Positions 12,863 through 62,955 are shown, counted from the first letter of the stretch. The stretch is 64,000 nucleotides of DNA from Candidatus Parcubacteria bacterium (GCA_026004535.1 BPJI01000001.1:324523-388522), one strand, 5' to 3'. Made by a program: numbers and translations. Notes: generated from the sequence alone by a model not told the origin.

Positions 12863-13297
12863 ATGAAAGCTTTTACTTTAACCGAAGTTTTAATTGTTTT
12901 TATTATTATTGGTTTTATTATTGGTTTTTCTTCTTATATTCATTCAAAATTTTCTCGAAGCACCTTAATAATTGATGAATCAGCCAGTTTAGTTGTTAAT
13001 GTTTTAAATTTAGCCAGACAGAAAGCAATTATTGGTGAAGAAAATGCTAATTGGGGAGTTTGGTTGATTAATACTTCAACTCAAGATTATTTTTATTTAT
13101 TTAGAGGAACAACGAGTAATTTAAAAGAAAGATATGAACTGCCTCAACAAGTGAGTTTTTTTGATTTTAGTGATAGGACAATAATTTTTCAAAAATTAAC
13201 AGGTGAAACAATCTCAACCACAATTAAGATTGGCTTTTCGCCAAGTTTTTATAAATTAATTAGGGTTTCAACTTCGGGGAGTATTATTGTTGAATAA
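12863..13297 (+). CDS. type IV pilin / pseudopilin (prepilin-type N-terminal cleavage-methylation domain)
   Basis: MKAFTLTEVLIVFIIIGFIIG: class III signal peptide with Glu at the fifth position of the presumed mature N-terminus (FTLTE). Confidence 0.7.
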   Translation: MKAFTLTEVLIVFIIIGFIIGFSSYIHSKFSRSTLIIDESASLVVNVLNLARQKAIIGEENANWGVWLINTSTQDYFYLFRGTTSNLKERYELPQQVSFFDFSDRTIIFQKLTGETISTTIKIGFSPSFYKLIRVSTSGSIIVE

Positions 13298-13299
13298 AT

Positions 13300-13660
13300 C
13301 GCTGAGAGCATTATTTTACCCGGATAAATACCGGATTATTTTACCCGGATAACCAACCGGATAATGTTTACCCGGATGAATACCGGATATTAAAATATCT
13401 ACCCGGATAGTCAACCTGATAGATCACCCGGATTATTACTGTATAAATCTGGTTTAAATCCGGGTAGTTATATCAGGTTAATATCCGGGGGATTATATCT
13501 GATTTAAATCCAGGTAACTTATCCGGTCATAATCCGGGTATTTGTATCCGCTTTGGATCAGGGTAGCTTATCCGGTTTAAATCCGGGTGCTATTATCCGG
13601 TTAATATCCGGGTAATTATATTTTCTCCTGCTGTCCGCGGTGAATAATTCTTCCGTGTTA
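13300..13660. repeat. CCGGAT-type periodic palindromic element (about 21-bp phasing), about 360 bp
   Basis: Left half is …tacccggataaataccggattattttacccggataacc…. Right half carries the reverse complements (…atccgggta…atccggt…). Right terminus is CTGCTGTCCGCGGT. Confidence 0.7.
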
Positions 13661-37075: not shown

Positions 37076-37081
37076 TAAATT

Positions 37082-40919: not shown

Positions 40920-40985
40920 ATTGTGTTATAATTTAGACTATGAAGCTATGAAGCTGCGAAGCTTTGAAGCTGAAAAGCTTAATAT

Positions 40986-41558: not shown

Positions 41559-43319
41559 ATGCCAAAATATATTTTTGTTTGCGGAGGGGTAATGTCAGGA
41601 GTAGGTAAGGGAATCGCTACTGCTTCGATTGCTAAAATTCTATCTTGGCATGGTTATAAAGTAACCTGTCTTAAGATTGATCCTTATGTCAATGTTGATG
41701 CTGGAACGATGAATCCTTTAGAACATGGTGAAGTTTTTGTTTTGAAAGATGGGACTGAATGTGATCAAGATATGGGACATTATGAAAGATTTTTAAATCA
41801 AGAATTGACAAAAGTAAATTATATGACAACCGGAAGTATTTACTTATCATTAATTCAAAAAGAAAGAAGTTTGTTTTTTGATGGAAAGTGTGTTGAAGTT
41901 GTGCCTCATGTTCCCTTAGAAGTTATTGGCAAAATTAATCAAGCGCAAAAATTGACTCAGGCTGAAATTGTGATTACTGAAATTGGTGGTACAGTAGGTG
42001 AATATCAAAATTTACTCTTTCTAGAAGCAGTAAGAATTTTAAAACTTAAAAATCCAAAAGATGTTCTTTTGGTGTTAGTAAGTTATTTGCCTTATCAAGG
42101 AGAAGGAATGGAACTTAAAACAAAACCAACTCAATATTCTATTCGTACACTTAATTCTGCTGGTCTTCAGCCTGATTTTGTTTTAGCCAGAGCTCAATTT
42201 CCTTTAGATGAAAAAAGAAAAGAAAAAATTTCTTTTAATTGCGGAGTACTAAAAGAAAATATAATTTCTGCTCCTGACGAGCATGTTGTTTATAAAATTC
42301 CTTTGAATTTTGAAAAAGAAAAATTGGGCATAAAAATTTTAAATAATTTTGGTTTGAAGCCTAAAAAAGCTCCACCAGATAGTGATTATAAAAAATGGAA
42401 AAATCAAATTGAAAATATTAATCAATTGAAAAAACAAGTAAATATTGGTATTGTAGGTAAATATTTTAAGACTGGAGATTTTGTTTTAGCTGATGCTTAT
42501 ATTTCAGTTATTGAAGCAATTAAACATGCAAGTTGGTTTTTGGGTTATCGGCCAAAAATTGTTTGGTTAAATTCAGAAGAATATGAAAAAGATAAAATAA
42601 AATTAGAGGAATTGAAAAATTATGATGGTATTATTATTCCTGGTGGTTTTGGCTCTCGAGGTATTGAAGGAAAAATTTTAGCGATTAAATATTGTCGGGA
42701 AAATAAAATTCCTTTGTTTGGTTTATGTTATGGTCTTCAACTTATGATTGTTGAATTTGCTAGGAACGTCTGTGGTTTAAAGAATGCTCAGACAACCGAG
42801 GTAAATCCTAGAACAAAATATCCGGTTATTGATATTTTGAAAGAACAAAAGAAATTATTAGAAGAAAAACTTTATGGAGGAACAATGAGATTAGGAGATT
42901 GGGAATGTGAAATAAAAAGAGGTACGATTGCTTGGAGAGCTTATGTAGAACTACGCAGAACTGACACAGAACTTAGCAGAACTGATACAGAACTAGGCAG
43001 AAGATATCAAAAAAATATTTCTGTTAGTTCTGCATTGAGTCAGTTTGTTCCACGCGTCTTAAAAGTTGTAGAAAGACATAGACATCGTTATGAAGTTAAT
43101 CCTAAATATCATAAAATTTTACAAAAGAAAGGTTTTGTTTTTTCGGGTACATCGCAAAAGGATTTATTAGTTGAAATCGGGGAATTGCCACAAAACATTC
43201 ATCCTTTCTTTTTGGGAACCCAATTTCATCCAGAATTGAAATCAAGATTTTTACATCCTCATCCATTATTTGTTGAGTTTATTAAACAGAGTATAATTAG
43301 TAAAAATGAGTATTTATGA
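41559..43319 (+). CDS. pyrG: CTP synthase
   Basis: MPKYIFVCGGVMSGVGKGIATASIAKIL…, GATase …GLCYGLQLM…. In-frame 21-nt x2 repeat insertion at about 42937-43010. Confidence 0.9.
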   Translation: MPKYIFVCGGVMSGVGKGIATASIAKILSWHGYKVTCLKIDPYVNVDAGTMNPLEHGEVFVLKDGTECDQDMGHYERFLNQELTKVNYMTTGSIYLSLIQKERSLFFDGKCVEVVPHVPLEVIGKINQAQKLTQAEIVITEIGGTVGEYQNLLFLEAVRILKLKNPKDVLLVLVSYLPYQGEGMELKTKPTQYSIRTLNSAGLQPDFVLARAQFPLDEKRKEKISFNCGVLKENIISAPDEHVVYKIPLNFEKEKLGIKILNNFGLKPKKAPPDSDYKKWKNQIENINQLKKQVNIGIVGKYFKTGDFVLADAYISVIEAIKHASWFLGYRPKIVWLNSEEYEKDKIKLEELKNYDGIIIPGGFGSRGIEGKILAIKYCRENKIPLFGLCYGLQLMIVEFARNVCGLKNAQTTEVNPRTKYPVIDILKEQKKLLEEKLYGGTMRLGDWECEIKRGTIAWRAYVELRRTDTELSRTDTELGRRYQKNISVSSALSQFVPRVLKVVERHRHRYEVNPKYHKILQKKGFVFSGTSQKDLLVEIGELPQNIHPFFLGTQFHPELKSRFLHPHPLFVEFIKQSIISKNEYL

Positions 43320-44865: not shown

Positions 44866-45744
44866 ATGTATTTATTAGGAGATGTAGGAGGTACAAAAAC
44901 AAGATTGGCAATTATTGATAAAATCTATATAAATTCAAAGCAAGTTTATAGACATCTTAAACAAAATACAAAAATTTTTAACACTCCTCAAAAATATGAA
45001 GATTTTTTAGAATTAATTAAAAATTATATTCTGCGTAGTTCAGCGTCAGTTCTGCGTAGTTCTGCATTAAAAATTTGTTTTGGATTTGCTGGTCTTTTCG
45101 ATCAAAAGAAAGAAAAATTAATTTACTCTCCAAATTTAAAAGATTATGTTGGCAGAAATTTAAAAAAAGATTTAGAAAAGATTTTACATCCGCGTTTATC
45201 CGTGGTACTCGAGAATGATGCTGCTTTAGCTGGTTTAGGAGAAGCATATTATGGAGCAGGAAAGAATTTTAATGTTTTTGGTTATATTACTTTAAGCACA
45301 GGAGTTGGAGGAGCTAAAATTGTTAATAAAAAAATTGATGATAATGTTTTTGGTTTTGAGCCAGGACATTTATTTATTTTAATTCAAAGTAAGACATACG
45401 ATGTCTTACCATTTGAAGTTGAAGAGATTGTTGGTGGTAAAAGTTTAGAAAGAATTTTTAATAAAAAACCGGAAGAAATAAAAGATAAAAAATTATGGGA
45501 TGATCTGAGTAAAATTTTAGCAATATTTTTAGTGAATGTTTCAATTTTTTGGTCTGTTGATAAAATTATTTTAGGTGGTGGATTAACGAAAAGTTTAAAT
45601 TTTAAAAAATTAAATTTTTATATTAATGAATTTAATCCCTTACCAGTTAAAATTAAAGTGATAAAATCAAAATTAGAAGAATTTTCAGGATTATACGGAG
45701 GATTGAGTTATTTAAGAAATACGGGGCATAGCGCAATTGGTTAG
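44866..45744 (+). CDS. ROK-family sugar kinase (glucokinase-like)
   Basis: MYLLGDVGGTKTRLAII…, …LENDAALAGLGEAYYGAG…. In-frame CGCAGAACT-type and palindromic repeat insertions. The last 8 codons run into a tRNA-derived repeat. Confidence 0.65.
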   Translation: MYLLGDVGGTKTRLAIIDKIYINSKQVYRHLKQNTKIFNTPQKYEDFLELIKNYILRSSASVLRSSALKICFGFAGLFDQKKEKLIYSPNLKDYVGRNLKKDLEKILHPRLSVVLENDAALAGLGEAYYGAGKNFNVFGYITLSTGVGGAKIVNKKIDDNVFGFEPGHLFILIQSKTYDVLPFEVEEIVGGKSLERIFNKKPEEIKDKKLWDDLSKILAIFLVNVSIFWSVDKIILGGGLTKSLNFKKLNFYINEFNPLPVKIKVIKSKLEEFSGLYGGLSYLRNTGHSAIG

Positions 45745-47984: not shown

Positions 47985-48375
47985 GATTAACGCAGACAGC
48001 AACAGAAAAAATATTTTCTGCCCGGATATTAACCGGATAAGTTACCCGGATTCTTACCGGATATACTACCCGGATTCTTACCGGATAATATTTCATTATT
48101 TTACCCGGATATTAACCGGATGATAGCTACCCGGATTTAGACCGGATATACTACCCAGCTATAAACCGGATGATTTATAAAATATTTTTTATCCGGTATT
48201 CATATCCGGGTAAAATAATCCGGGTGGCTATCCGGGTAATCTATTCCGGTAAGTTATCCGGGTAAAACAATCCGGTATTTATCCGGGTAATCCATCCGGT
48301 TGACTATCCGGTTAATATTTTAATATCCGGTAATCATCCGGGTAAATAAATATCCGGTTGATTATCCGGGTTAAA
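47985..48375. repeat. CCGGAT-type periodic palindromic element, about 390 bp
   Basis: Left …cccggatattaaccggataagttacccggattcttaccggatatac…. Right half carries the reverse complements …atccgggtaaaataatccgggtggctatccgggtaatc…. Confidence 0.7.
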
Positions 48376-48380
48376 GATAT

Positions 48381-48905
48381 ATGACCAACATCCTTTTACA
48401 ATATTATCAAAAATATCCATTTATTTTTAATTATTTTGATTTTCTGCGTGATTTATTATTAGCTTTCCAATTAATTTTAATATTTAGTTTTATCTTTGCT
48501 TCAAAAAAATGGAAATATATTTTTTATTATTTGTCTATTTTTTTATTTGCTTTTTTAGTCGCAACATTTTTTAAATCTTATTTTCCTTCACTAAGACCAA
48601 TTTCTTATTTTTGCGAAACTCAAAATTTAATCTGTGATGGTCTGCGTTATGATAGTTTTCCTTCTCGACATACGTTGATTTCTTTTGCTTCATCATTAAC
48701 GTTGATTTTTCAAAATTTCAAGCTCGGTATTTTTTCTTTAGCTTTAACAATATTGATTGCTATTTTGAGTTTGCTCTCTCTTCGGCATTGGTTAATTGAC
48801 GTAATTTTTGGTTTTATTTTTGGTTTTATTGTCTTTTGGATTTTGTTTAAACTTTCAAAGTTTTTTAATTGGTTTGATGTTAATCAAAGACAAAGCAAAG
48901 CCTAA
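48381..48905 (+). CDS. PAP2-family membrane phosphatase
   Basis: KSYFPSLRP (KxxxxxxRP), SFPSRHT (PSGH-like), SLRHWLIDV (SRxxxxxHxxxD). Confidence 0.65.
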   Translation: MTNILLQYYQKYPFIFNYFDFLRDLLLAFQLILIFSFIFASKKWKYIFYYLSIFLFAFLVATFFKSYFPSLRPISYFCETQNLICDGLRYDSFPSRHTLISFASSLTLIFQNFKLGIFSLALTILIAILSLLSLRHWLIDVIFGFIFGFIVFWILFKLSKFFNWFDVNQRQSKA

Positions 48906-50660
48906 AAATTCCCTTAAAAAATAAACAAAAGCAATTTTATACGCCACGGATTCACGCCGATTTTTATAATCCACGGATTTACGCGGATTTAGAACGGATT
49001 TACGTGGATTATTATCATTAGGATTTAGGCGGATGTTGTTTCCGGGTAGTATTCTTTCTTTTTCATAAAAGCTATGAATTTTTTTAGCTAAATCAATTAA
49101 ATAATCAGTGAGAAGATGAGGTCTTTTTTCTTTGTAAATTAAATAAATTAAATCTTGTAATTGATGAACCTTTCTTAAAATTATTTTAGCTGAGTCAATG
49201 TCTTTAATTGATAAGAAAACTTTTTGCGCATCAATTATTCGTGTTAATTCGCTTTTTATTCGTGTTAATTCGCGTCCTTTCTCCAAAATACTATTTAACC
49301 TTGCACAAGCATATTGAATATACCAATAAGGATTTTCCTCTGATTCTTTTTTGGCTAAATCTAAATCAAATTCAATCATAGCCTCAGGAGATTTTTGTAA
49401 AAAGAAAAATCTAACAACTCCTGAGTCAATTTCGTCAATTAAGTCTTGTAAAGTGATAAAAACTCCTCTTCTTTTTGACATTCTTAAATATTCTTGTCCT
49501 TTTTTAAGATGAACAAATTGATAAACTATCGGTAAAAATTGGTAATCTTTAATGCCAAAAATTTTTAAAGCGGCTCTCAATCTGCGAGTGTGATCAAGAT
49601 GGTCACTAGCAACAATTAAAATTTCTATCTTATTTTTCTTAAGAAAAAATTTATGGTAATAGTGTAAAATATCAGAGAAAAAATAAGTTGGTTCACCATT
49701 TTGTTTAATTAAAACTTCATCTTTATCTTCACCCAATTTTGTTAAAAGCAAAAACAAAGCTCCATCTCTATTTTCAATTAATTTTTTTCTTTCAAAAATT
49801 CTTAGAACTCTTTTATCTAAATTTTTTTTATAGAGATCCGTTTCAAAGAAGTACCAATCAAAATTAGTGCCAAAATTTTTTAAGGCTTGTTTAATGAGAT
49901 TCTTTAAAATATAATCAGCTACTTTTTTGCCAATTTTTTCTAATATTACAGACTCATGCTGATTTAGAATTGTTTTTATTTCTTCACTCAACTTTTCAGC
50001 AATCTCTTTTAGATATTCACCTTGATAAAAATTGCTTTCCCAATCAAGATAACCTAAATGAGCCAAGACTGTTTTGGCTAAAATCTCAATTTGATTTCCG
50101 CGATCATTAACGTAATATTCCCTAGTAACTCTAAATCCAGCTAATTTTAAAATGTTTGCCAAAGTATCTCCTAAAACAGCACCTCGAGCATTTCCTAAAG
50201 TTAAAGGCCCAGTAGGATTAGCGGAGACATAATCAATATTTAATTTTTGTTTTCGACCATAATTTTGTTGGAAAAATTTTTCTTTATTTTTATAAATTGC
50301 TCTAAATGTTTTTAAAAGCTGATAATCAGAAAGCCAAAAATTTAAGTAATTATTGACAATCTCGATTTTTTTGAAAACCAAGGATTTTCGCGGATTTAAA
50401 ACGGATTTATGCGGGTTATTATCAGCGTTGATCCTTTTTGAAATCTGTGTAAATCTGTGTTTAATTTTATCAATAATTATTTTTTCTTTTTCCGGAGCAA
50501 ATTGTTTTAAAAGAAAAATTAGATTGGTTGAATAATCACCTAATTTTTCATCATCAATTAAAAATACTTTTAATTTTTGTAAAATTTTCTCTGCTTTTTC
50601 TTTATCGATTTCTTTTCTAATTAAATTTTTCAATTTTTGCTCTAAAAGATAAAGATTCAT
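48855..50660 (-). CDS. argS: arginyl-tRNA synthetase
   Basis: …YVSANPTGPLTLGNARGAVLGD…. In-frame CACGGAT-repeat insertions near both ends (48930-49040 and 50380-50420). Confidence 0.85.
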   Translation of the reverse strand: MNLYLLEQKLKNLIRKEIDKEKAEKILQKLKVFLIDDEKLGDYSTNLIFLLKQFAPEKEKIIIDKIKHRFTQISKRINADNNPHKSVLNPRKSLVFKKIEIVNNYLNFWLSDYQLLKTFRAIYKNKEKFFQQNYGRKQKLNIDYVSANPTGPLTLGNARGAVLGDTLANILKLAGFRVTREYYVNDRGNQIEILAKTVLAHLGYLDWESNFYQGEYLKEIAEKLSEEIKTILNQHESVILEKIGKKVADYILKNLIKQALKNFGTNFDWYFFETDLYKKNLDKRVLRIFERKKLIENRDGALFLLLTKLGEDKDEVLIKQNGEPTYFFSDILHYYHKFFLKKNKIEILIVASDHLDHTRRLRAALKIFGIKDYQFLPIVYQFVHLKKGQEYLRMSKRRGVFITLQDLIDEIDSGVVRFFFLQKSPEAMIEFDLDLAKKESEENPYWYIQYACARLNSILEKGRELTRIKSELTRIIDAQKVFLSIKDIDSAKIILRKVHQLQDLIYLIYKEKRPHLLTDYLIDLAKKIHSFYEKERILPGNNIRLNPNDNNPRKSVLNPRKSVDYKNRRESVAYKIAFVYFLREFLGFALSLINIKPIKKL

Positions 50661-53600
50661 TGAAACACTCTTTTAAAAGTGTCATTTAATATTTTTTGAT
50701 AATCTTTCTTACCTTCAGCAACTAAATCCATTGCCTCTTCTAATTTTATAGTAAATTCTTCAGCAACCAAATCTTTGTGTTTTTTAATCAAATAATTATA
50801 AATCTTTTCTCCTAAAGAAACGGGAATTAAATATCCCGAACGATTGAGAACATATTTTCTATCAATTAAAGTTTGAATAATTGTTGAATAAGTTGATGGT
50901 CTACCTAAGCCTCTTTTTTTCATTTCATCAATAAGCTCACCCTGGGTATAATGATATTCTTTTGGTACTTTTTTAATTTTTAAATTCTCAACTTTAAATT
51001 TATCTTCAATTAAATTAAAAATTTTTATATTTTTAAAGAATTGAAGATGATTGCCTTCAGTAATTTCAACAAAAGCCTCTTGTGTTTGCTTATATAAAAC
51101 AAATTCATGGTTACTTGTTTTAAGGATTATTTCAATTTCTGTTTTTTTGCCTTTGCTTGGTTTCATCTGAGAAGCGATAAATCTATTAAAGATCAATCCG
51201 TAAAGCTGTAAGTGTTTTTTAGTCAAATTTTTTTGTTCTAAAATCATACTTTCAATAAGATCTTGGACATCTAACGGTTTTGTCGGTCTTATTCCTTCAT
51301 GAGTACCAATTTCTCCCCAAGCTCGTTTATAAAACAAATCTTTTAAATTCTTTCTTTCTAAATATTCATAGGCAACATTACGACCGAATTCAGAAACGAA
51401 AACAGAATCAGTTCGATGATAAGTAATTAATCCTTGTTCAAAAAGGTCCTGAGCTAATCTCATTGTTATTGGAGCTTCAAATCTAAAAAAACTATTAGCA
51501 TCTTTTAAAAGATTACTTGTATCATAAGGAGGTAGGGGATTAATTGTTTCTTCTTGGGTTCTGTTAAATTTTATTTCAATTTCTAATTCTTGGTTTTTAA
51601 AGGCTGTTTTTATTTCTTTAATAATGTCTTCATTTTCTAAGTAAAAATAAAGAGGAGTAAGTTTTTGGGAATCATTGGGTTGATTTATGCTAACATTAAC
51701 TAAATAATGCTTATTTTTAATTCTTTTTTCTTTTTCTAAAATCCAACCTAAGACTGGAGTCTGAACTCTGCCGGCAGAAAGATTGAGATTTTTAAAATGT
51801 TGTTGAATTTCTTCACTTAATTTAAAACCAATCCAACGATCAGAAATTCTTCTTAAAAGTTGAGCCTTGACTAAATTAACATCAACATCTCTTGGTTCTT
51901 TTATTTTTTTAATGAATTCAGTTTTGGTAATTTCATGAAGCTCTATTCGTTTGATGTTTTGATTATAGGGATAAAGATAGGCAAATAAATCAAAAGCTAT
52001 TTTTTCGCCTTCGGTATCAGGATCAGTGGCTAAATAAATTTTATCAACCTCAAAAGCAATTTTTTGTAAATTTTTTATTAATTCTTGTTTACTAAGGAAA
52101 TTTTGAGAATTACAAACAGGACATTCATTTTCGTTTAAACTTAAGTGGCGCTTACAATTCTGACAAATTTTTAAGGGTTGAAAAACAGGCACAAATTCCC
52201 CTTTTTCTTTTTTGACACCATAATAACCATCTTGATGAGTTAAATCAGTAAAGTGCCCTAAAGTAGCGCAAATATTTAAATGTAGATTTCCTAAGGAAAC
52301 CTCATAAAAAATAATATTAGCCTTAATTCTCCTAGCTGGCTTGCCAAAAAAGTTAGCGATCGTTTTTGCTTTTGTCGGCGATTCAACTAAAACCAAAGCA
52401 GTTTCAATTGGATCTTTAAGAGTAAACTCTTCGCCAGTTAAGACCCTTTCAACAATTTTGCGATCTTTATCAATTTCTTCTAAAATTTTTGTTAAATTAA
52501 TTTCACTAGCATTTTTAAAATTTGCTTCATAGCCTAAGATTTTCAATTTATCTTTTAAATGATTTAAAACTTTTTCATTTTCAGCTAAAATTAAAGCTAA
52601 TCCTTTGGTAAGACCCAGAGGAAAAAGTCGCGAAGTTCTACCTGATGCTTGAATATAGCCACGAGGATCAGAAACAACTAAATAATAATTTAAATTATTA
52701 CCCGGATCATCACTAGATATATTACCCGGATGATTACCGGATAGATGGTTGTTTTCCTTGGAATTTATATTAGTTTTTACTCCATTATTGTTCGCATTGG
52801 TTCGCGTATAGTTCGCATCAGTCTGCGTCATTAGAGTTATTCTTGGATGTTTTTTAATTTTTTCAATAATTTCTTCATCTTTTAAAAATTCTTCAAAAGT
52901 TCTTTTTATTGGTTCGATTTTTTCCTTTAAATTTTTATCAGCCAGAATTGCTTCTTCTTTGAGAAAAGATATTTTTTTAAGAAAATTCAAATTTCTTTCA
53001 ATTAACGATTTTTCATCGACAGTTTCTCTTAATGTTAGGCCTAAAAGAAAAAGATGTAAAGGAGAATAAGATACTTTTAATGGAATCTTAAATTTTGGCA
53101 CACCCAAAAACAAGGCATATCTTACTTTTTGGGGTAAATCAATTCCTCGAGTTAAGGGATTTCTAATATTACTAAAGCCGACAACAACTTGAATTTCATT
53201 TTCTAAAAAAGCTTTTTGATTTTTGGTATTAAATTTTTCATACGAAACAGCATTTATGCTATTTTCTTTTAAAAAATCAATATAATTATTTAAATCTTCT
53301 TTACGAAAATCATCATTTAAAAAAACAAAACCACCAGGACCTAATTTTTTTAGCCAATAGATTGATCTTTTGATTAACGCGATTTTTTGCGAACTATCGG
53401 AAGGAGCGGAAACGAACGCAGAACTATCGGAATGAGCGGAAGAATTGTTTCCGTTTGTTCCGTTTATAATTTCATACACTTCTTCAATGTTTCTTAAATA
53501 AGTTGTTGCTGAGCCAATTTCAAATCCTAAAAGTTCTCGAAAAAGGGCAATTTTTTTTGTTTTTGGAGTTAAAGTGGCTGAAGCAGCAATAATAAGACCC

Positions 53601-54355
53601 TTCTCATCTTTGTTAATATCCATAACTTCAATTGCAGCATAATCTTCTCTATTTTTGGCTTTTCTTTTTTTGTCAATAATTTGGATTGCTCTTTGGATTT
53701 CTTCATCTTTGAATTTAATTAATTTCAAAACTTTATCAATATTTTTTGGTTGTCTGATTAAAGAATCGGCGTCATCAACAAAAACCAAATCAAAATTTTT
53801 AGGAATAATGTCAAAATTTTTATGAAGAAAGTTGGCCGTAGTAAGCAAAATATCAAAATCTTCATTTTTTAATAATTCTTTATCTTCTTTTTCTTTAATG
53901 ATTAAAATTTTTTTATCAGATTTTATATTTTTTAATTTTTTCTCAATCTCACGCAATAAAATTTTTGAAGGGACTAAATAATAAACTTTGCCTGGAAGAA
54001 AATGAGAAATAATGTTACCAAAAGTTGTTTTACCAATTCCGGTAGGAGCAATTATGGAAAAAGATTCTCTTTTTAAGACTCTTTTTGCCCAATAAAGCTG
54101 AAGTCGAAGTGGTTGATGCCCAGTATTTTCTTTAAAAAAATTTATGAATTCTTTTAATTTCTGTAAAACTATGTAATCTTCATTAAAATTCTCCAAGTCC
54201 TCTTTAAGATCGAGATTCTCAGTTATCTTAAATAGGGTTTTTTTAAATCTTTCATAATCTTTATTACACAAGCCATAATTATAGATTTCCTCAAAATTAG
54301 CATCATTTCTATCTATCGGACAAATTTCTAAATAGCGAACGTTTAATTTTTCCAT
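50657..54355 (-). CDS. rgy: reverse gyrase (N-terminal helicase-like domain fused to a type IA topoisomerase)
   Basis: …LQLYWAKRVLKRESFSIIAPTGIGKTTFG…, …DLVFVDDAD…, …ALVLVESPTKAKTIANFF… (TOPRIM), Zn finger CQNCKRH…CPVC. 1232 aa. In-frame repeat insertions at about 52690-52830 and 53390-53460. Confidence 0.8.
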   Translation of the reverse strand: MEKLNVRYLEICPIDRNDANFEEIYNYGLCNKDYERFKKTLFKITENLDLKEDLENFNEDYIVLQKLKEFINFFKENTGHQPLRLQLYWAKRVLKRESFSIIAPTGIGKTTFGNIISHFLPGKVYYLVPSKILLREIEKKLKNIKSDKKILIIKEKEDKELLKNEDFDILLTTANFLHKNFDIIPKNFDLVFVDDADSLIRQPKNIDKVLKLIKFKDEEIQRAIQIIDKKRKAKNREDYAAIEVMDINKDEKGLIIAASATLTPKTKKIALFRELLGFEIGSATTYLRNIEEVYEIINGTNGNNSSAHSDSSAFVSAPSDSSQKIALIKRSIYWLKKLGPGGFVFLNDDFRKEDLNNYIDFLKENSINAVSYEKFNTKNQKAFLENEIQVVVGFSNIRNPLTRGIDLPQKVRYALFLGVPKFKIPLKVSYSPLHLFLLGLTLRETVDEKSLIERNLNFLKKISFLKEEAILADKNLKEKIEPIKRTFEEFLKDEEIIEKIKKHPRITLMTQTDANYTRTNANNNGVKTNINSKENNHLSGNHPGNISSDDPGNNLNYYLVVSDPRGYIQASGRTSRLFPLGLTKGLALILAENEKVLNHLKDKLKILGYEANFKNASEINLTKILEEIDKDRKIVERVLTGEEFTLKDPIETALVLVESPTKAKTIANFFGKPARRIKANIIFYEVSLGNLHLNICATLGHFTDLTHQDGYYGVKKEKGEFVPVFQPLKICQNCKRHLSLNENECPVCNSQNFLSKQELIKNLQKIAFEVDKIYLATDPDTEGEKIAFDLFAYLYPYNQNIKRIELHEITKTEFIKKIKEPRDVDVNLVKAQLLRRISDRWIGFKLSEEIQQHFKNLNLSAGRVQTPVLGWILEKEKRIKNKHYLVNVSINQPNDSQKLTPLYFYLENEDIIKEIKTAFKNQELEIEIKFNRTQEETINPLPPYDTSNLLKDANSFFRFEAPITMRLAQDLFEQGLITYHRTDSVFVSEFGRNVAYEYLERKNLKDLFYKRAWGEIGTHEGIRPTKPLDVQDLIESMILEQKNLTKKHLQLYGLIFNRFIASQMKPSKGKKTEIEIILKTSNHEFVLYKQTQEAFVEITEGNHLQFFKNIKIFNLIEDKFKVENLKIKKVPKEYHYTQGELIDEMKKRGLGRPSTYSTIIQTLIDRKYVLNRSGYLIPVSLGEKIYNYLIKKHKDLVAEEFTIKLEEAMDLVAEGKKDYQKILNDTFKRVFQ

Positions 54356-55232: not shown

Positions 55233-56579
55233 TTAATTGATTCTTTTCAAAATAATTCCTCCGCCTAAAACGATGTCATCTTTATAAAAAACTATTGATT
55301 GACCTGGGGCAACAAATTTTTGAGGTTCGAGAAATTCAATGAACGCAGACCCTCGCAGACTGTGCGCAGACTTTTGCAGACTATACTCAGATTCACGCAG
55401 AATAAGTTTTGCTTTAACTAAGGGTTGTCTATGGCGAAAACGAACATCAATAATTATAGAATTACCCGGATGATTACCTGATAGATTACCCGGATGATTA
55501 CCTGATAGATTACCCGGATGATTACCGGATGAATAGTTATTGTTTATATAGTCTGCGTAAGTCTGCGTGTAGTCTGCGTGGGTCTTCGTTTTATCTGTAT
55601 TAGTCTGAGGAAACAAAATTTCTTTTTCTAAGATATTAATTTCAGTAATTTCAATTTTTTGGCTATAAAGTAAAGGATGACCTTCTTTAGCAACAACAAT
55701 TAAATTTTCTTCAGGAATTTTTTGAGCTACATAATATGGGCCATCACCAACTTTAATATTAAGTCCATGTCTTTGGCCTTCAGTGAAATAAAAATAACCA
55801 GGATGAGTGCCTAGGATCCTTCCTTCAGTATCAATAATTTTACCTTCTTTTGGTTTTAAATATTGACTTAAAAATTCTCTTAATTTTACTTGGCCAACAA
55901 AGCAAATTCCCATACTTTCCTTCTTCTCAGCAACTGGTAAATTATATTTTTTAGCAATTTCTCTAACTTCAGTCTTTAGCAAATCGCCAACAGGGAAAAT
56001 TATTTTTGAGAACTTTTCTTTTTCAATTGACCAAAGAAAATAAGTTTGATCTTTATCCTGATCTTTTGCTTTTAAAAGATGAATTTCAGATGTATTACCC
56101 TGATGTCCACCGGATATATTACCCAGATAATTACCTGATGAATTATTTCTTTTATTAGATTCTATATTAAGATTGTCTTTCTTATTGTTCGCATCAGTTC
56201 GCGTTAAGTTCGCATCGATTTGCGTTCGAGCATAATGTCCTGAAGCAACCATCTCATAACCTAAATTTAAAGCTTTATCAAAAAATACGCCAAATTTTAT
56301 AAACTGATTGCAGTAGACATCTGGATTAGGAGTTAAGCCCTTTTCATAAGTTCGAATCATATAGTTTATAACTTTTTCTTCAAATTCATCGGTTAAATCA
56401 AAAACATAAAAAGGAATATTTAAAATTTCAGCTACTCGACGAGCATCTTCAGCATCTTGAGGATTACAAAAATCAAAACAATGTAAATGAACACCAACGA
56501 GATTATAACCTTTTTCTTTTAAAAGCAAAGCTGAAACTGAAGAATCAACTCCTCCAGAAAGAAGAACAGCTATTTTCAT
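55233..56579 (-). CDS. mnmA: tRNA-specific 2-thiouridylase MnmA
   Basis: MKIAVLLSGGVDSSVSALLL… PP-loop. Two long in-frame insertions of CCGGAT plus GTCTGCGT repeat DNA (55340-55580, 56090-56230). Confidence 0.85.
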   Translation of the reverse strand: MKIAVLLSGGVDSSVSALLLKEKGYNLVGVHLHCFDFCNPQDAEDARRVAEILNIPFYVFDLTDEFEEKVINYMIRTYEKGLTPNPDVYCNQFIKFGVFFDKALNLGYEMVASGHYARTQIDANLTRTDANNKKDNLNIESNKRNNSSGNYLGNISGGHQGNTSEIHLLKAKDQDKDQTYFLWSIEKEKFSKIIFPVGDLLKTEVREIAKKYNLPVAEKKESMGICFVGQVKLREFLSQYLKPKEGKIIDTEGRILGTHPGYFYFTEGQRHGLNIKVGDGPYYVAQKIPEENLIVVAKEGHPLLYSQKIEITEINILEKEILFPQTNTDKTKTHADYTQTYADYINNNYSSGNHPGNLSGNHPGNLSGNHPGNSIIIDVRFRHRQPLVKAKLILRESEYSLQKSAHSLRGSAFIEFLEPQKFVAPGQSIVFYKDDIVLGGGIILKRIN

Positions 56580-57345: not shown

Positions 57346-57465
57346 CTCATTCAGCTTTACAGCTTCCTAGCTTCACAGCTTATCAGCTTCAAAAAATTAT
57401 AATATAATTATTATATCATAGAAGCTTTAAAGCTATGAAGCTTGGAAGCTGATAAGCTATTTTTT

Positions 57466-57788: not shown

Positions 57789-57817
57789 TTGACATCATAT
57801 TTTTTTCTATTTATAAT
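57789..57817 (+). promoter_or_regulatory. sigma70-like promoter (TTGACA-17-TATAAT), duplicate of 37048
   Basis: Identical upstream 60 bp to the 37082 gene. Confidence 0.5.
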
Positions 57818-57823
57818 TAAATT

Positions 57824-58144
57824 ATGAATAAAAAAATGAATAAATCCTTCACTTTAGTTGAACTCTTAGTTGTCTTAGCTCTAATAGCTATCTTAGCTAC
57901 TGTCTTAATTGTTGTCATTAAGCCAGCAGATATCTTTAAAAGAGGTAGAGATAGTCAAAGAACTTCAGACCTTAAAAATCTTGAAAAAATATTTGACCTT
58001 ATTCTTTTTGAAACTCAAGGCACCTTTTCTGAACTTCAATATGCTTCTTCAAATGTTGTCTATATCTCTCTTCCTGATACTTCATCAACTTGTGGTCAAT
58101 GGATAAGTCAATTACCACAGCTTCCTTCAGGCTGGTCATATTGA
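57824..58144 (+). CDS. type IV pilin-like module (identical to 37082..37402) ending at the same in-frame TGA
   Basis: 100% identical N-terminal module; TGA at 58142-58144. Confidence 0.7.
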   Translation: MNKKMNKSFTLVELLVVLALIAILATVLIVVIKPADIFKRGRDSQRTSDLKNLEKIFDLILFETQGTFSELQYASSNVVYISLPDTSSTCGQWISQLPQLPSGWSY

Positions 58145-60885: not shown

Positions 60886-61482
60886 ATGTTAATTCCGTTA
60901 TTTAAAAAAATTATTGAATTTTTTGATTCTTTTCCTGAAATTGGGCCGAGACAGGCAATGAGACTATTTTTTTGGTTGGTTAAGCAAGATAAAGAAACGA
61001 AAAATAAATTTTTGGAAAATTTAAAAGTTTTATTTGAAAATGTAAATTTCTGCCAAAATTGTTTTTTTCCAACAACAGAAAAACTTTGCTTAATTTGTTC
61101 TAATCCTAAAAGGAAAGATGAAATAATTGCTTTAGTCGCTCGAGAAACCGATGTTTTAAGTTTAGAGACAGCTAAAGTTTTTAAAGGTAAATATTTTATT
61201 TTAGGTGGTTTAATTTTGCCTTTTGAGGATAAGGGTTTGATTAAAGAAAGATTAAAAATTCTTGAAAAAAGATTAGAAGATGGAAAAATTGAAGAAGTTA
61301 TTGTTGCCTTACCTTATACGCGCGAGGCTGAACCAACTTTAAAACATTTAGAAATTTTAAGAAAAAAATTCCCCCAAGTTAAATTTAGTTTTTTAGCTAA
61401 AGGAATTCCTCTTGGCGGTGAGATTGAATTTATTGACCCAGAGACATTAAAAGAAGCAATTGAAAAACGAATATCGCCCTGA
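60886..61482 (+). CDS. recR: recombination protein RecR
   Basis: C4 zinc finger FCQNCFFPTTEKLCLIC plus Toprim domain. Confidence 0.85.
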   Translation: MLIPLFKKIIEFFDSFPEIGPRQAMRLFFWLVKQDKETKNKFLENLKVLFENVNFCQNCFFPTTEKLCLICSNPKRKDEIIALVARETDVLSLETAKVFKGKYFILGGLILPFEDKGLIKERLKILEKRLEDGKIEEVIVALPYTREAEPTLKHLEILRKKFPQVKFSFLAKGIPLGGEIEFIDPETLKEAIEKRISP

Positions 61483-61484
61483 TT

Positions 61485-61720
61485 TACATCGGATGAATTT
61501 ACCCGGATTTAAACCGGATATAATTACCCGGATGTAAACCGGATATAACTACCCGGATGTAAATCGGATAATAGCTACCCGGATTTAGACCGGATGATTC
61601 ATAAAATATTTTTAATCCGGTAGTTTATCTGGGTAAAATAAATCCGATATTAATCCGGGTAATATTTTAATCCGGTATTTATCCGGGTAATCTATCCGGT
61701 TGGTTATCCGGGTAGTTAAG
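61485..61720. repeat. CCGGAT-type periodic palindromic element
   Basis: …tttacccggatttaaaccggatataattacccggatgtaaaccggatataactacccggatg…, then reverse-complement half …atccggtagtttatctgggtaaaataaatccg…. Confidence 0.7.
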
Positions 61721-61721
61721 T

Positions 61722-62744: not shown

Positions 62745-62955
62745 CCGCTGACAGCTGCGGAAATGTTTTAACCACTAGGATGGTCTATTGGATATAGTTA
62801 CCCGGATAACCAACCGGATATCTATTTACCCGGATAACTTACCGGATTATATTTACCCTGATGATTACCGGATAAATCCGGTTTATATCCGGGCAGTGGT
62901 TATCCGGTTTAAATCCGGGTAGAAAATATTTTTCAGCTGCTGTCCGCGGTAAATA
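62745..62955. repeat. CCGGAT-type periodic palindromic element with inverted flanks (CCGCTGACAGCTGCGGAAA … TTTTCAGCTGCTGTCCGCGGT)
   Basis: Seen directly. Shares the right terminus with 13300-13660. Confidence 0.7.

What the first reader, a model, noticed from the sequence alone, without database searches (positions are those of the whole stretch)
50657..54355. Reverse gyrase in an AT-rich CPR-like bacterium, decorated with repeat insertions
A single 1232-aa ORF combines the reverse-gyrase-specific helicase-like domain (…WAKRVL…APTGIGKTTFG…) with a type IA topoisomerase domain (TOPRIM, Zn finger). Reverse gyrase is regarded as a hallmark of hyperthermophiles and thermophiles. Finding it in a roughly 30% GC patescibacterial-type genome implies a high-temperature habitat or horizontal acquisition. 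The gene also carries two in-frame low-complexity insertions, which raises the question of whether it is active.
Basis: partly seen in the sequence, partly recalled or inferred. Interest (0 to 1): 0.65.

Follow-up and report, generated by a model that had tools for sequence, protein, structure and literature searches.

The report
Reverse gyrase carrying selfish repeat inserts
A tiny hot-spring bacterium (Patescibacteria/CPR) encodes an apparently intact reverse gyrase, the DNA-protecting enzyme typical of heat-loving microbes, and its two odd insertions are copies of short repeats that have also landed in frame in several neighbouring essential genes.

Summary
ORF 50657-54355 (-) encodes a 1232-aa reverse gyrase (RG). 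It scores 1082 bits on TIGR01054 (cutoff 472), and all helicase, TOPRIM and catalytic-Tyr motifs are intact. The identical protein is already public (GIW67516.1). It comes from a Paceibacteria MAG (family HR35, most likely KatS3mg096) from Katase hot spring sediment at 52 C. The organism is therefore a moderate thermophile, not a mesophile.

The 54 CPR-type RGs form one clade (60/60 NJ bootstraps). Just outside sit three sequences, one from a co-resident Desulfobacterota_D ('Dadabacteria') MAG. This 57-member clade has C-x2-D...C-x2-D in place of the canonical Cys4 N-terminal zinc finger.

The two inserts (+25 aa, +42 aa) are absent from all 56 relatives. They fall in the H1-H2 linker and in a latch hairpin loop, the only low-confidence parts of a good AlphaFold model. 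They are made of a lineage-restricted family of short GC-richer repeats. The same repeats form long intergenic palindromes and sit in frame in MnmA, ArgRS, CTP synthase and a ROK kinase, much as Rickettsia palindromic elements do.

The RG is an ordinary, already annotated new member of a known family. The in-frame repeat invasion is the more novel part.

The parts
50657..54355 (-). Reverse gyrase ORF, 1232 aa. Its stop overlaps the ArgRS start by 4 nt.
   Evidence: Identical to GIW67516.1. The RG-ArgRS overlap and order are conserved in relatives L001 and L002.
54257..54322 (-). N-terminal Zn1-like knuckle with C12-x2-D15 ... C30-x2-D33 in place of CxxC...CxxC
   Evidence: In the 57-member clade: C12 56/56, D15 51/56, C30 51/56 (H in 2), D33 46/56 (H in 6). 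Outside the clade all four positions are Cys in 31/31. No clade member has a PF17915 hit.
54026..54049 (-). Helicase motif I (Walker A) APTGIGKT, aa 103-110
   Evidence: A103, P104, G106, G108 and K109 are invariant in 89 sequences.
53762..53779 (-). Helicase motif II VDDADS, aa 193-198
   Evidence: D194, D195 and D197 are invariant.
53393..53467 (-). Insert 1, +25 aa (INGTNGNNSSAHSDSSAFVSAPSDS), 45% GC, with an internal 30-nt duplication. It lies in the H1-H2 interdomain linker.
   Evidence: Absent from all aligned relatives. pLDDT is below 50 at residues 300-316, between strand 290-296 and helix 320-338. It contains TCTGCGT and GTTCGC, the reverse complements of the L-module cores. Its peptide signature resembles MnmA site 3 (SAHSLRGSAF).
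52670..53095 (-). Latch region inserted in RecA domain H2 (about aa 421-562)
   Evidence: The region is unaligned to, or expanded relative to, A. fulgidus residues 383-421. Helices 432-502 and the hairpin 507-512/555-562 appear in the model. The latch definition comes from PMC4117796.
52691..52816 (-). Insert 2, +42 aa. The repeat DNA spans about 52694-52828: L module (ACGCAGAC / GATGCGAAC, roughly 10-12-nt spacing), an AT-rich spacer, then R module (TCCGGTAATCATCCGGGTAAT...GATCCGGGTAAT).
   Evidence: pLDDT is below 50 at residues 518-550, in the loop of beta-hairpin 507-512/555-562. The R-module unit matches the pattern found 29 times in the window against 0 expected.
52628..52651 (-). Helicase motif VI QASGRTSR, aa 569-576
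   Evidence: Q569, G572, R573, S575 and R576 are invariant.
51929..52396 (-). TOPRIM domain with E658 (VESPTKA), the Zn2 finger CQNC...CPVC (nt 52112-52165) and DPDTEGE (nt 52004-52024)
50687..51886 (-). Type IA topoisomerase core. The catalytic Tyr979 in GLITYHRTDS lies at nt 51419-51421.
   Evidence: PF01131, 278 bits. Y979, H980, R981, T982, D983 and S984 are invariant.
55233..56579 (-). MnmA-like gene, 448 aa against 352 aa in orthologues, with three in-frame repeat inserts (nt 56091-56207, 55455-55601, 55350-55379). Two have the same L-spacer-R architecture as RG insert 2.
48855..50660 (-). ArgRS gene, 601 aa against 531 aa in the L002 orthologue, with two in-frame inserts of the ATCCGTG/ATCCGCG repeat family (nt 50376-50444, 48939-49034)
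47985..48385 (.). Intergenic palindromic array of the same repeat unit: [TACCCGGAT-n4-ACCGGAT]n, a loop, then [ATCCGGT-n4-ATCCGGGTA]n
   Evidence: It folds as one long DNA hairpin, dG -93.6 kcal/mol, z = -10.5. The same spacer is 17-51 nt in relatives L002, L003 and L004.
13295..13640 (.). A second large intergenic palindromic array of the same family. Further arrays lie at 28320-28450, 61455-61730 and 62780-62940.
42933..43064 (+). In-frame small palindromic repeat insert in CTP synthase (586 aa against 562 aa in the orthologue)
45037..45060 (+). In-frame repeat insert (SSASVLRS) in a ROK-family kinase

Best explanation
This is a genuine and most probably active reverse gyrase of a moderately thermophilic, AT-rich Paceibacteria (CPR) bacterium from a 52 C hot spring.

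Mechanism (inferred from the family, not shown here): the N-terminal SF2 helicase-like module binds ATP and locally unwinds DNA. The latch couples this to the C-terminal type IA topoisomerase, whose Tyr979 cleaves one strand and passes the other, raising the linking number. This overwinding and renaturing activity protects a 30% GC chromosome from heat-induced melting and damage.

Evolution: the gene belongs to a single CPR-specific RG clade. That clade's nearest relatives include the RG of a co-resident Desulfobacterota_D bacterium, so one old inter-phylum transfer followed by vertical descent is the likeliest history. This 57-member clade has replaced two of the four Cys ligands of the N-terminal zinc finger by Asp.

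The two 'decorations' are not part of the enzyme's design. They are copies of a young, lineage-restricted family of short GC-richer periodic repeats (about 12- and 24-nt periods), which I take to be non-autonomous selfish DNA of the MITE/REPIN type, with unit number later changing by slippage. Between genes these repeats build long palindromes. Inside genes only copies that keep the frame, avoid stop codons and fall in surface loops survive. In RG those sites are the H1-H2 linker and a hairpin loop of the naturally hypervariable latch, where they are translated as disordered Gly/Asn/Ser/Pro-rich loops and tolerated.
For: RG identity: TIGR01054 scores 1082 bits against a cutoff of 472. The domain order is DEAD, Toprim, Topoisom_bac. 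PDB sequence hits to RGs reach E about 1e-180. All top 11 Foldseek hits of the helicase-module model are RGs, E 1e-33 to 1e-25, against about 1e-11 for generic SF2 helicases.

Activity: motifs I, II, III and VI, E658, DPDTEGE and Y979 all lie in invariant columns. The gene overlaps the essential ArgRS gene by 4 nt in a conserved arrangement.

Thermophily: provenance is the Katase spring at 52 C, with an exact match of contig length and accession for the sister MAG and a Tome OGT of 53 C. Mean tRNA GC is 61.6% in a 31% GC genome, and IVYWREL is 0.43. Relatives come from springs at 41-51 C and 69.4 C.

Clade: the 57-member clade has 100/100 NJ bootstrap support and the 54 CPR-type sequences have 60/60. 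P0053 lies on BPIS01000004.1, which belongs to KatS3mg078, a Desulfobacterota_D MAG. RG gene GC equals the genome's.

Inserts: they are absent in all relatives at syntenic loci. They are the only pLDDT<50 segments of a model with mean pLDDT 86. The latch naturally ranges from 10 to 120 aa (PMC4117796). The repeat unit occurs 29 times in the window against 0 expected. The same family is inserted in frame in other genes of the window (5 of 12 genes with orthologues) and in different genes of relative L001 (FBP aldolase, MurJ-like), whose sites are empty in the window. Family A is absent from seven other related loci.
Against: No biochemical or expression data exist for any CPR reverse gyrase. 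Zn1 deletion abolishes supercoiling in one studied enzyme (PMC4117796), so the Cys2Asp2 knuckle could mean altered activity. Insert 2 sits close to the base of the latch, which contacts the topoisomerase lid. Low pLDDT in the inserts is partly expected, because no other sequence in the alignment covers them. For the repeats, I found no terminal inverted repeats, no target-site duplication and no transposase or RAYT gene in the window, so 'mobile element' is inferred only from their distribution. The trees are NJ trees with a simple distance correction, not maximum likelihood. Assignment of the window to KatS3mg096 specifically rests on accession order and GC.
Confidence: 0.75

Rival explanations
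1. The enzyme is crippled or neofunctionalised. With a non-canonical Zn1 and a 42-aa insertion in the latch it no longer makes positive supercoils, and acts only as an ATP-independent relaxase or DNA chaperone, or is on its way to becoming a pseudogene.
For: Zn1 and Zn2 deletions abolish supercoiling but not relaxation in the T. tengcongensis enzyme, and latch deletion abolishes supercoiling in the T. maritima enzyme (PMC4117796). Two of the four Zn1 Cys are replaced. Insert 2 lies in the latch.
Against: The ORF is intact over 1232 codons and all catalytic and ATPase motifs are invariant. The C-x2-D...C-x2-D pattern is itself conserved across 57 sequences of 40-71% identity, with His as the main alternative, which points to selection on a still-functional and possibly still metal-binding knuckle. 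Latch length naturally varies from 10 to 120 aa, and its sequence is not conserved. A minimal-latch T. maritima RG has been crystallised (8ofb). The inserts are in a linker and a hairpin loop, not in secondary-structure elements.
Confidence: 0.13
2. The repeats did not arrive by transposition of an element. They arise and spread by local replication slippage together with ectopic recombination or gene conversion among short GC-rich seeds. On this view they are microsatellite or minisatellite-like expansions that happen to be frame-neutral because the period is 12 or 24 nt.
For: Inside genes the period is exactly 24 nt (55460-55533). Unit copy number varies between copies (2-3 units). Insert 1 contains a 30-nt tandem duplication. 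The same protein sites are occupied by different repeat content in the window and in L001 (MnmA sites 2 and 3). No TIR, TSD or transposase was found.
Against: RG insert 2 and the MnmA insert at 56091-56207 share a whole composite architecture, including the non-repetitive AT-rich spacer. That is easier to explain by copying an element than by independent expansion. The family appears at many unlinked loci and in different genes in two genomes, yet is absent from equally close relatives. The two mechanisms are not mutually exclusive.
Confidence: 0.3
3. The inserts are adaptive additions to reverse gyrase, for example flexible DNA- or partner-binding loops in the latch selected for function in this lineage.
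For: All six intragenic R-module copies seen (three in the window, three in L001) are read in the same hydrophilic frame (S-G-x-x-P-G-N), although a second stop-free frame exists. One insert is in a functionally important module, the latch.
Against: Neither insert is present in any of 56 other clade members, including those at 70% identity. The same DNA occurs between genes and in unrelated enzymes such as MnmA, ArgRS, CTP synthase and ROK kinase. The frame bias is equally explained by purging of hydrophobic or stop-containing frames.
Confidence: 0.05
4. Artefact: the RG gene or its inserts result from mis-assembly, mis-binning or sequencing error, and do not belong to a CPR genome.
For: The source is a metagenome-assembled genome, and repeats can cause assembly errors.
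Against: The window carries a 16S rRNA, typical CPR genes and the RG on one contiguous sequence with uniform GC. The public contig is 556,583 nt, from a PacBio assembly. The same MnmA-FBA-RG-ArgRS-PAP2-MurJ synteny recurs in independent assemblies from other springs. All inserts keep the frame. An independent assembly (L001) shows the same repeat family in frame in other genes.
Confidence: 0.02

Closest known systems
Reverse gyrases of Thermotoga maritima (PDB 4ddu/4ddt) and Archaeoglobus fulgidus (1gku/1gl9)
   Same: They share the single-chain architecture: Zn1 region, RecA domain H1, RecA domain H2 with a latch, TOPRIM with Zn2, then the topo IA core. They share the ATPase motifs, the TOPRIM acidic residues and the catalytic Tyr motif GxITYHRTDS.
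   Different: Identity is about 36-42% to the non-clade RGs aligned here. The N-terminal zinc finger has Cys2Asp2 instead of Cys4, and no PF17915 match is on record for any clade member. The latch is long, with two lineage-specific repeat-derived loops. The host is an ultra-small 30% GC CPR bacterium living near 50 C rather than at 80 C or above.
Reverse gyrases of moderate thermophiles (Nautilia profundicola 40 C; Caminibacter, Lebetimonas and Nitratiruptor 55 C; Thermodesulfovibrio aggregans 60 C), as listed by Catchpole & Forterre 2019
   Same: RG is present in organisms whose habitat or optimum is well below 65 C and which live in geothermal settings with temperature excursions.
   Different: Those are cultured Campylobacterota and Nitrospirota. 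That survey does not mention CPR or Parcubacteria at all. Here a whole clade of at least 54 sequences sits in hot-spring Patescibacteria.
Rickettsia palindromic elements (RPEs; Ogata et al. 2000, as summarised in PMC10969869)
   Same: Both are short (about 100-150 bp) repeated elements, many palindromic, inserted at high frequency in frame into unrelated housekeeping genes of a small reduced genome. Both are translated as extra peptide segments compatible with the protein fold, and both show presence/absence differences between related genomes.
   Different: No sequence relationship is expected, and none was tested. These elements are built from about 12- and 24-nt periodic sub-repeats. They occur as several modules (CCGGGTA, CCGTG and CGCAGA types) that combine, and they also form 150-400 nt intergenic palindromic arrays. 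The host is a thermophilic CPR bacterium.
REP / BIME / REPIN elements mobilised by RAYT transposases
   Same: Both are short GC-richer imperfect palindromic units, clustered in alternating orientation, that form hairpins between genes at high copy number and are lineage-specific.
   Different: REPs are by definition extragenic, whereas these also sit inside ORFs. No RAYT (IS200/IS605 Y1 transposase) was seen among the 21 window proteins scanned. The rest of the genome could not be examined.

Membership tests
Reverse gyrase (TIGR01054, rgy) | A single polypeptide fusing an N-terminal SF2 helicase-like module to a C-terminal type IA topoisomerase | tested here: met
   DEAD/ResIII at 86-263, Toprim at 654-809, Topoisom_bac at 824-1223.
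Reverse gyrase (TIGR01054, rgy) | Scores above the curated equivalog cutoff and better than the topoisomerase I/III models | tested here: met
   1082.5 bits against a cutoff of 471.7. topA_bact scores 314.5, below its cutoff of 456.4.
Reverse gyrase (TIGR01054, rgy) | ATPase/helicase motifs I, II, III and VI intact | tested here: met
   APTGIGKT, VDDADS, SAT and QASGRTSR lie in invariant or nearly invariant columns of 19- and 89-sequence alignments.
Reverse gyrase (TIGR01054, rgy) | TOPRIM acidic residues and the catalytic tyrosine of the type IA core | tested here: met
   E658, D778-x-D780-x-E782 and Y979 in GLITYHRTDS are all invariant.
Reverse gyrase (TIGR01054, rgy) | Latch insertion in RecA domain H2 | tested here: met
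   The region aa about 421-562 lies between the conserved VPKF (P420) and SDP. It is helical with a basal hairpin in the model. The definition comes from PMC4117796.
Reverse gyrase (TIGR01054, rgy) | N-terminal Cys4 zinc finger (Zn1, PF17915). This is typical of the family but is not required by the family model. | tested here: not met
   The sequence has C12-x2-D15...C30-x2-D33. No clade member has a precomputed PF17915 hit. The substitution is shared by the 57-member clade, while 31/31 RGs outside it have four Cys. I treat this as a clade-level variant rather than an exclusion, because the curated equivalog model is passed more than two-fold.
Reverse gyrase (TIGR01054, rgy) | Second zinc finger (Zn2) in the TOPRIM domain | tested here: met
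   CQNC-x11-CPVC at aa 731-748. Some bona fide RGs (P0087, P0091) lack it.
Reverse gyrase (TIGR01054, rgy) | Helicase module structurally closest to RG helicase modules rather than to other SF2 helicases | tested here: met
   Foldseek against the PDB: ranks 1-11 are RGs (E 2.8e-33 to 3.6e-25), and the next hits are RecQ/DEAD-box proteins at about 5e-11.
Reverse gyrase (TIGR01054, rgy) | ATP-dependent positive supercoiling activity | not testable with these tools
   This needs purified protein and a plasmid topology assay.
Reverse gyrase (TIGR01054, rgy) | The host is a thermophile or hyperthermophile (an empirical association) | tested here: met
   The source is a 52 C hot spring sediment with Tome OGT 53 C. 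tRNA GC is 61.6% and IVYWREL is 0.43. Relatives come from springs at 41-69 C.
RPE-like in-frame palindromic/selfish repeats (functional analogy only) | A dispersed multi-copy short repeat family, far more frequent than chance | tested here: met
   29 matches against 0 expected for ATCCGGTnnnnATCCGGGTA. ACCCGGA is enriched 30-fold.
RPE-like in-frame palindromic/selfish repeats (functional analogy only) | Copies inserted in frame in unrelated protein-coding genes, leaving the ORF intact | tested here: met
   RG, MnmA (3 sites), ArgRS (2 sites), CTP synthase and ROK kinase in the window. FBP aldolase, a MurJ-like gene, MnmA and ArgRS in L001.
RPE-like in-frame palindromic/selfish repeats (functional analogy only) | Presence/absence polymorphism at orthologous sites in related genomes (empty sites) | tested here: met
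RPE-like in-frame palindromic/selfish repeats (functional analogy only) | Insertions located in surface loops compatible with the fold | tested here: met
   Tested for RG only. Both inserts coincide with the only pLDDT<50 segments, in a linker and a hairpin loop. The caveat is that there is no alignment depth over the inserts.
RPE-like in-frame palindromic/selfish repeats (functional analogy only) | Each element is itself a palindrome | tested here: inconclusive
   The intergenic arrays and the L001 FBA, L001 MnmA and window CTP synthase inserts are palindromic. RG insert 2 and two MnmA inserts are L-spacer-R composites whose ends are not complementary (RNA fold z = -2.07).
RPE-like in-frame palindromic/selfish repeats (functional analogy only) | Sequence homology to the Rickettsia RPE families | not tested
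The claim is therefore 'works like', not 'member of'.
REP/REPIN-RAYT system | A cognate RAYT (Y1 transposase) gene in the genome | tested here: inconclusive
   None was found among the 21 window proteins scanned with Pfam. Most of the roughly 0.84 Mb genome lies outside the window.
REP/REPIN-RAYT system | Strictly extragenic location | tested here: not met
   About 10 intragenic sites in the window.

The most novel reading that the evidence does not exclude
A lineage of thermophilic Paceibacteria (family HR35) is undergoing a recent invasion by modular repeats with about 12- and 24-nt periods. Besides forming 150-400 nt intergenic palindromes, they insert in frame into a large fraction of housekeeping genes: 5 of 12 testable genes here, including reverse gyrase, with a probable further case in gyrase B. 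[quoted passage not shown] Because the 12/24-nt periodicity is frame-neutral, it could make such elements unusually tolerable inside ORFs. A secondary point is that the CPR reverse gyrase clade, shared with a co-resident Desulfobacterota_D bacterium that could be a host or gene donor, works with a Cys2Asp2 knuckle instead of the canonical Cys4 zinc finger.
Probability: 0.45. Interest if true: 0.6.

Novelty: new member of a known kind. Interest (0 to 1): 0.42.

Why it matters
1. Reverse gyrase is used as a presence/absence marker of thermophily, including in reconstructions of ancestral growth temperature. A monophyletic RG clade in hot-spring CPR bacteria living at about 41-69 C is absent from the reference survey (Catchpole & Forterre 2019). 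It extends the marker to an ultra-small, probably symbiotic lineage and to the low end of the temperature range. Its position next to a co-resident Desulfobacterota_D enzyme gives a concrete case of inter-phylum transfer.

2. The conserved Cys2Asp2 replacement of Zn1 is a natural experiment on a zinc finger whose role the field still calls enigmatic.

3. The inserts show that even a large multidomain machine such as RG tolerates selfish repeats in its interdomain linker and latch. They also expose an RPE-like in-frame repeat invasion in a CPR genome. That bears on MAG annotation (inflated protein lengths, spurious low-complexity 'domains'), on how reduced genomes cope with selfish DNA, and on the origin of new protein loops.

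Tried and rejected
- Genome-wide scan for the repeat unit ATCCGGTNNNNATCCGGGTA in genome contigs.
- Exact look-up of the window protein in the contig index found nothing. Provenance was established instead through cluster members and the source paper's Table S3.
- Intein, intron or RNA-level removal of the inserts: rejected. The inserts are 25 and 42 aa, too short for an intein (own knowledge). The Rfam gathering scan found only 16S rRNA and tRNAs in the window.
- Recent HGT of RG into this genome: rejected. GC is 28.4%, like the genome, and synteny is conserved across relatives.
- The first definition of the CPR clade as P0001-P0055 was not monophyletic (14/100 bootstraps), because P0053 groups with P0056 and P0057. 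This led to the finding that P0053 belongs to a Desulfobacterota_D MAG.
- The criterion 'gap in all orthologues' for calling inserts was too strict, because relatives carry their own inserts at the same hot spots. I replaced it with comparison against the shortest orthologue.
- Target-site duplications at the RG insert sites: none recognisable at about 70% protein identity.
- Transposase search: the D6 300-nt exact duplicate is a pilin-like gene, not an IS element.
- Literature searches for reverse gyrase together with Patescibacteria, Parcubacteria or CPR, and for RPE-like repeats in CPR, found no explicit report. The only trace is an implicit count in a Kerguelen hot-spring MAG study.

Full report
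**Observation.** Pfam finds a DEAD/ResIII helicase region (aa 86-263), a Toprim domain (654-809) and the bacterial type IA topoisomerase core (824-1223). The curated NCBIfam equivalog model for reverse gyrase, TIGR01054, scores 1082.5 bits against a cutoff of 471.7. The topoisomerase I model reaches only 314 bits, below its own cutoff. The best solved-structure relatives are the reverse gyrases of A. fulgidus (E about 1e-180) and T. maritima (E about 1e-170), and the isolated T. maritima RG helicase domain also matches (3e-40). The window is 31% GC outside a complete bacterial 16S rRNA at 333-1858.

**Integrity of the enzyme.** I aligned the protein with 18, and then 88, other reverse gyrases. 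Helicase motifs I (APTGIGKT), II (VDDADS), III (SAT) and VI (QASGRTSR) all fall in invariant or nearly invariant columns. So do the TOPRIM glutamate (E658), the DPDTEGE acidic cluster and the catalytic tyrosine (Y979 in GLITYHRTDS). The TOPRIM zinc finger (CQNC...CPVC) is present. The gene's stop codon overlaps the start of the arginyl-tRNA synthetase gene by 4 nt, an arrangement conserved in relatives. This argues for co-expression with an essential gene.

**Whose gene it is, and at what temperature.**
- The identical protein is public as GIW67516.1, 'MAG: reverse gyrase 2 [Candidatus Parcubacteria bacterium]', on a 556,583-nt contig.
- A sister entry, GIW65979.1 (P0051), lies on a contig of 634,165 nt with accession BPJG01000001.1. 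Both values are those listed for MAG KatS3mg094 in Table S3 of Kato et al. 2022 (PMC9671151), a PacBio metagenome of Katase hot spring sediment at 52 C.
- By accession order and GC (0.300), the window most likely belongs to KatS3mg096: Patescibacteria, Paceibacteria, o__UBA6257, f__HR35, 844 kb, Tome-predicted optimum 53 C. This last step is an inference.
- That paper never mentions reverse gyrase.
- Independent proxies from the window agree with thermophily. tRNA genes average 61.6% GC in a 31% GC genome and the 16S is 53.9% GC. The IVYWREL fraction of 54 predicted proteins is 0.43, which gives about 67 C by the Zeldovich et al. 2007 regression. That formula is from my own knowledge and is rough for AT-rich genomes.
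- Relatives whose samples I could trace are all geothermal. P0002 comes from Chocolate Pots hot spring cores at 40.8-50.7 C and P0004 from Yellowstone LCB-024 at 69.4 C. P0025 is 'bacterium HR35'. To my knowledge this bin comes from Kato et al. 2018, which describes cultures at 65-70 C and surfaced, but I did not confirm the link.
- So the gene marks a moderate thermophile, not a mesophile and not a hyperthermophile.

**Phylogenetic position.**
- About 55 sequences of 47-71% identity are the nearest hits. Those that carry names are labelled Parcubacteria, Patescibacteria or Minisyncoccia. The next hits are Aquificota-type enzymes at about 40%.
- I built a neighbour-joining tree of the 120 best hits (1103 columns). 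P0001-P0057 form a clade in 100/100 bootstraps. Within it, the 54 CPR-type sequences are monophyletic in 60/60 replicates.
- The three sequences just outside include P0053, which is encoded on BPIS01000004.1. That contig belongs to KatS3mg078, a Desulfobacterota_D ('Dadabacteria', g__HRBIN37) MAG with 42% GC and a predicted optimum of 68 C, from the same spring.
- The RG gene has the same GC as its genome, and the MnmA-FBA-RG-ArgRS-PAP2-MurJ neighbourhood is conserved in relatives from other springs.
- The likeliest history is one old inter-phylum transfer involving a thermophilic donor or recipient of this kind, followed by vertical descent in hot-spring Paceibacteria. The direction of transfer is not resolved.

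**A clade-wide variant of the N-terminal zinc finger.** No member of the 57-sequence clade has the precomputed PF17915 (reverse gyrase zinc finger) hit that most of the other listed RGs carry. Outside the clade, all 31 aligned RGs have Cys at all four ligand positions. Inside it, position 12 is Cys in 56/56, position 15 is Asp in 51/56, position 30 is Cys in 51/56 (His in 2) and position 33 is Asp in 46/56 (His in 6). Conservation of Asp or His at exactly the two replaced ligand positions suggests a still-structured, possibly still metal-binding Cys2Asp2 knuckle rather than decay. That is an inference. [quoted passage not shown] This remains the main uncertainty about activity.

**The two insertions.**
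- Compared with the syntenic orthologue in L002 (1154 aa), the window protein has +25 aa at 297-321, +42 aa at 514-555, and two small repeat-free extras of +7 and +6 aa. Together these account for the length difference. No other clade member has the two large inserts.
- An AlphaFold2 model of residues 1-650, built on an 89-sequence alignment, is confident overall (mean pLDDT 86, pTM 0.80). Its only segments below pLDDT 50 are 300-316 and 518-550.
- Insert 1 lies between the last strand of RecA domain H1 and the first helix of H2, in the flexible interdomain linker.
- Insert 2 lies in the loop of a beta-hairpin (strands 507-512 and 555-562) at the C-terminal end of the latch.
- Low confidence there is partly expected, because no homologue covers the inserts. 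Their Gly/Asn/Ser/Pro/Asp-rich composition still fits disordered loops.
- The latch is the most variable part of reverse gyrases, ranging from 10 to 120 aa with no sequence conservation. A minimal-latch T. maritima enzyme has been crystallised (8ofb).
- The model's 11 best PDB matches are all reverse gyrases.
- I therefore consider the inserts tolerated passengers.

**What the inserts are made of.**
- At the DNA level, insert 2 is a composite: an L module (ACGCAGAC / GATGCGAAC, cores spaced about 10-12 nt apart), an AT-rich spacer, and an R module (TCCGGTAATCATCCGGGTAAT...). The neighbouring MnmA gene contains the same L-spacer-R architecture twice.
- The R unit, written as ATCCGGTnnnnATCCGGGTA, occurs 29 times in the window with at most one mismatch, against 0 expected. 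ACCCGGA is 30-fold over-represented.
- Most copies lie between genes. There they form long imperfect palindromes: units in one orientation, a loop, then the same units inverted. Examples are at 13295-13640, 28320-28450, 47985-48385, 61455-61730 and 62780-62940.
- The array at 48010-48385 folds as a single DNA hairpin with dG -93.6 kcal/mol and z = -10.5. It fills a spacer that is only 17-51 nt long in relatives.
- A second family (ATCCGTG/ATCCGCG type) forms arrays at 6230-6335, 38270-38380 and 63620-63730, and also sits inside ArgRS.
- Insert 1 carries the reverse complements of the L-module cores (TCTGCGT, GTTCGC) and an internal 30-nt duplication. Its peptide resembles the third MnmA insert. 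I regard it as the same family in the opposite orientation, with less certainty than for insert 2.

**A lineage-wide, in-frame phenomenon.**
- Twelve window genes have orthologues in the fetched related loci. Five of them carry repeat-bearing in-frame inserts at about ten sites: RG (2), MnmA (3), ArgRS (2), CTP synthase (one small palindrome in two pieces) and a ROK kinase (1). The inserts are 36-60% GC against a 31% background.
- Gyrase B also contains such a repeat tract (about 23583-23632), but I had no orthologue to confirm that it is an insertion.
- Relative L001 (Chocolate Pots) has 8 exact copies of the same unit in 9.8 kb, in different genes. Its FBP aldolase carries NLPGFKPDNLPGYQPDSSGKHPGNKSGKHPGNN, which is both arms of the palindrome translated. 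A MurJ-like flippase gene and MnmA carry inserts too. Those sites are empty in the window, and its RG sites are nearly empty.
- Seven other related loci, some equally close in RG identity, have no family-A copies at all.
- All six intragenic R-module copies are read in the same hydrophilic frame (S-G-x-x-P-G-N), although another stop-free frame exists.
- This pattern of empty and filled sites, lineage restriction, frame preservation and loop locations is that of selfish DNA filtered by selection. The closest precedent is the Rickettsia palindromic elements (summarised in PMC10969869).
- I found no terminal inverted repeats, no target-site duplications and no transposase or RAYT gene in the window. 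How the repeats spread, by transposition or by slippage plus recombination, therefore stays open.
- I found no paper describing such elements in Patescibacteria.

**Comparison with what is known, and novelty.**
- As an enzyme this is a new, already annotated member of a known family. Its presence in a hot-spring organism is what the family's biology predicts.
- Three things go beyond the textbook. (a) A monophyletic RG clade exists in CPR bacteria, not covered by the reference RG survey, which lists only five moderate thermophiles and no CPR. Elsewhere it is only implicit in a Kerguelen MAG study. (b) The clade has a Cys2Asp2 Zn1 variant and sits next to a co-resident Desulfobacterota_D enzyme. 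(c) The RPE-like in-frame repeat invasion, of which the RG 'decorations' are one instance.
- None of these is categorically new. Point (c) is the most interesting and deserves a whole-genome census.

**Verdict.** The enzyme is probably active. The inserts are tolerated copies of a lineage-specific repeat family. Overall interest is moderate (0.42). [quoted passage not shown] I give it a probability of about 0.45, and it would merit interest of about 0.6 if true.

Noticed in passing
window 13295-13640, 28320-28450, 47985-48385, 61455-61730, 62780-62940: Long intergenic imperfect palindromes built from sub-repeats with about 12- and 24-nt periods: [TACCCGGAT-n4-ACCGGAT]n, a loop, then [ATCCGGT-n4-ATCCGGGTA]n. 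The array at 48010-48385 folds as one DNA hairpin (dG -93.6 kcal/mol, z -10.5). It fills a spacer between divergent genes that is only 17-51 nt in relatives. Whether it has any function (cruciform, terminator, protein-binding array) is unknown.
   Followed up: partly
window 21926-23893 (GyrB; repeat tract about 23583-23632), 41559-43319 (CTP synthase; 42933-43064), 44866-45744 (ROK kinase; 45037-45060), 36253-36984 (TP_methylase C-terminus): Repeats of the CGCAGA(A/C) family, with about 10-11-nt periods, lie in frame in further housekeeping genes. The CTP synthase copy is a small palindrome. The methylase ORF reads through into repeats at its C-terminus. The GyrB case was not checked against an orthologue.
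   Followed up: partly
window 21926-23893: The genome encodes DNA gyrase subunit B as well as reverse gyrase, so it probably balances negative and positive supercoiling, as Thermotoga and Aquifex are known to do (own knowledge). GyrA was not looked for.
   Followed up: no
window 40919-40984, 57398-57464, 57346-57395 (minus strand), 31254-31314: A TATAAT-like box is followed by about five tandem 8-nt units (nnGAAGCT). This sits directly upstream of tRNA-Lys, tRNA-Arg and the tRNA-Glu/tRNA-Ala pair, and once upstream of an ORF. It could be a repeat-built 5' leader or promoter-proximal element. Unexplained.
   Followed up: partly
L117 3001-6501 (BPIS01000004.1, KatS3mg078): A Desulfobacterota_D ('Dadabacteria', HRBIN37) MAG from the same hot spring carries an RG of the same Zn1-variant clade, branching just outside the CPR sequences. 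Both HR35-type CPR and HRBIN37 carry names from the same Japanese 'HR' bin series. This hints at gene exchange, or at a host-symbiont pair.
   Followed up: partly
window 18701-19996 and 20007-21512: Alanyl-tRNA synthetase appears split. The first ORF (431 aa) covers positions 1-429 of the 552-position catalytic-domain model. It is followed 10 nt later by a 501-aa ORF with no Pfam hit at E<=1e-5. This may be a genuine split gene, a frameshift, or a divergent C-terminal half.
   Followed up: no
window 6832-9219, 9866-12454 and 26200-27819: Large ORFs with long tandem repeats (7 x 114 nt, 4 x about 231 nt) share a GC-rich 58-nt motif (CGGCAACGTCGGCATCGGGACGAC..., encoding GNVGIGTT) present in 9 copies. 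Local GC rises to 40%. They are probably surface or fibre-like proteins and were not characterised.
   Followed up: no
window 37059-37358 and 57801-58100: Two 100% identical segments of at least 300 nt each encode a 106-aa protein with a prokaryotic N-terminal methylation (type IV pilin-like) motif. PilB-like (14307-16004) and PilC-like (16014-17261) genes are also present.
   Followed up: partly
window 38907-39527: An AbiEii-family nucleotidyltransferase toxin (type IV toxin-antitoxin / abortive infection) gene sits next to a repeat array and a tRNA-Glu gene.
   Followed up: no
L116 (CTP synthase at about 11507-13195; MnmA-like ORF of 442 aa found by blastp): A relative that lacks the CCGGGTA repeat family still has its own repeat-like inserts (e.g. 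PRINADNNFSVN in CTP synthase, and a 442-aa MnmA). Different repeat families therefore seem to hit the same protein hot spots in different lineages.
   Followed up: partly
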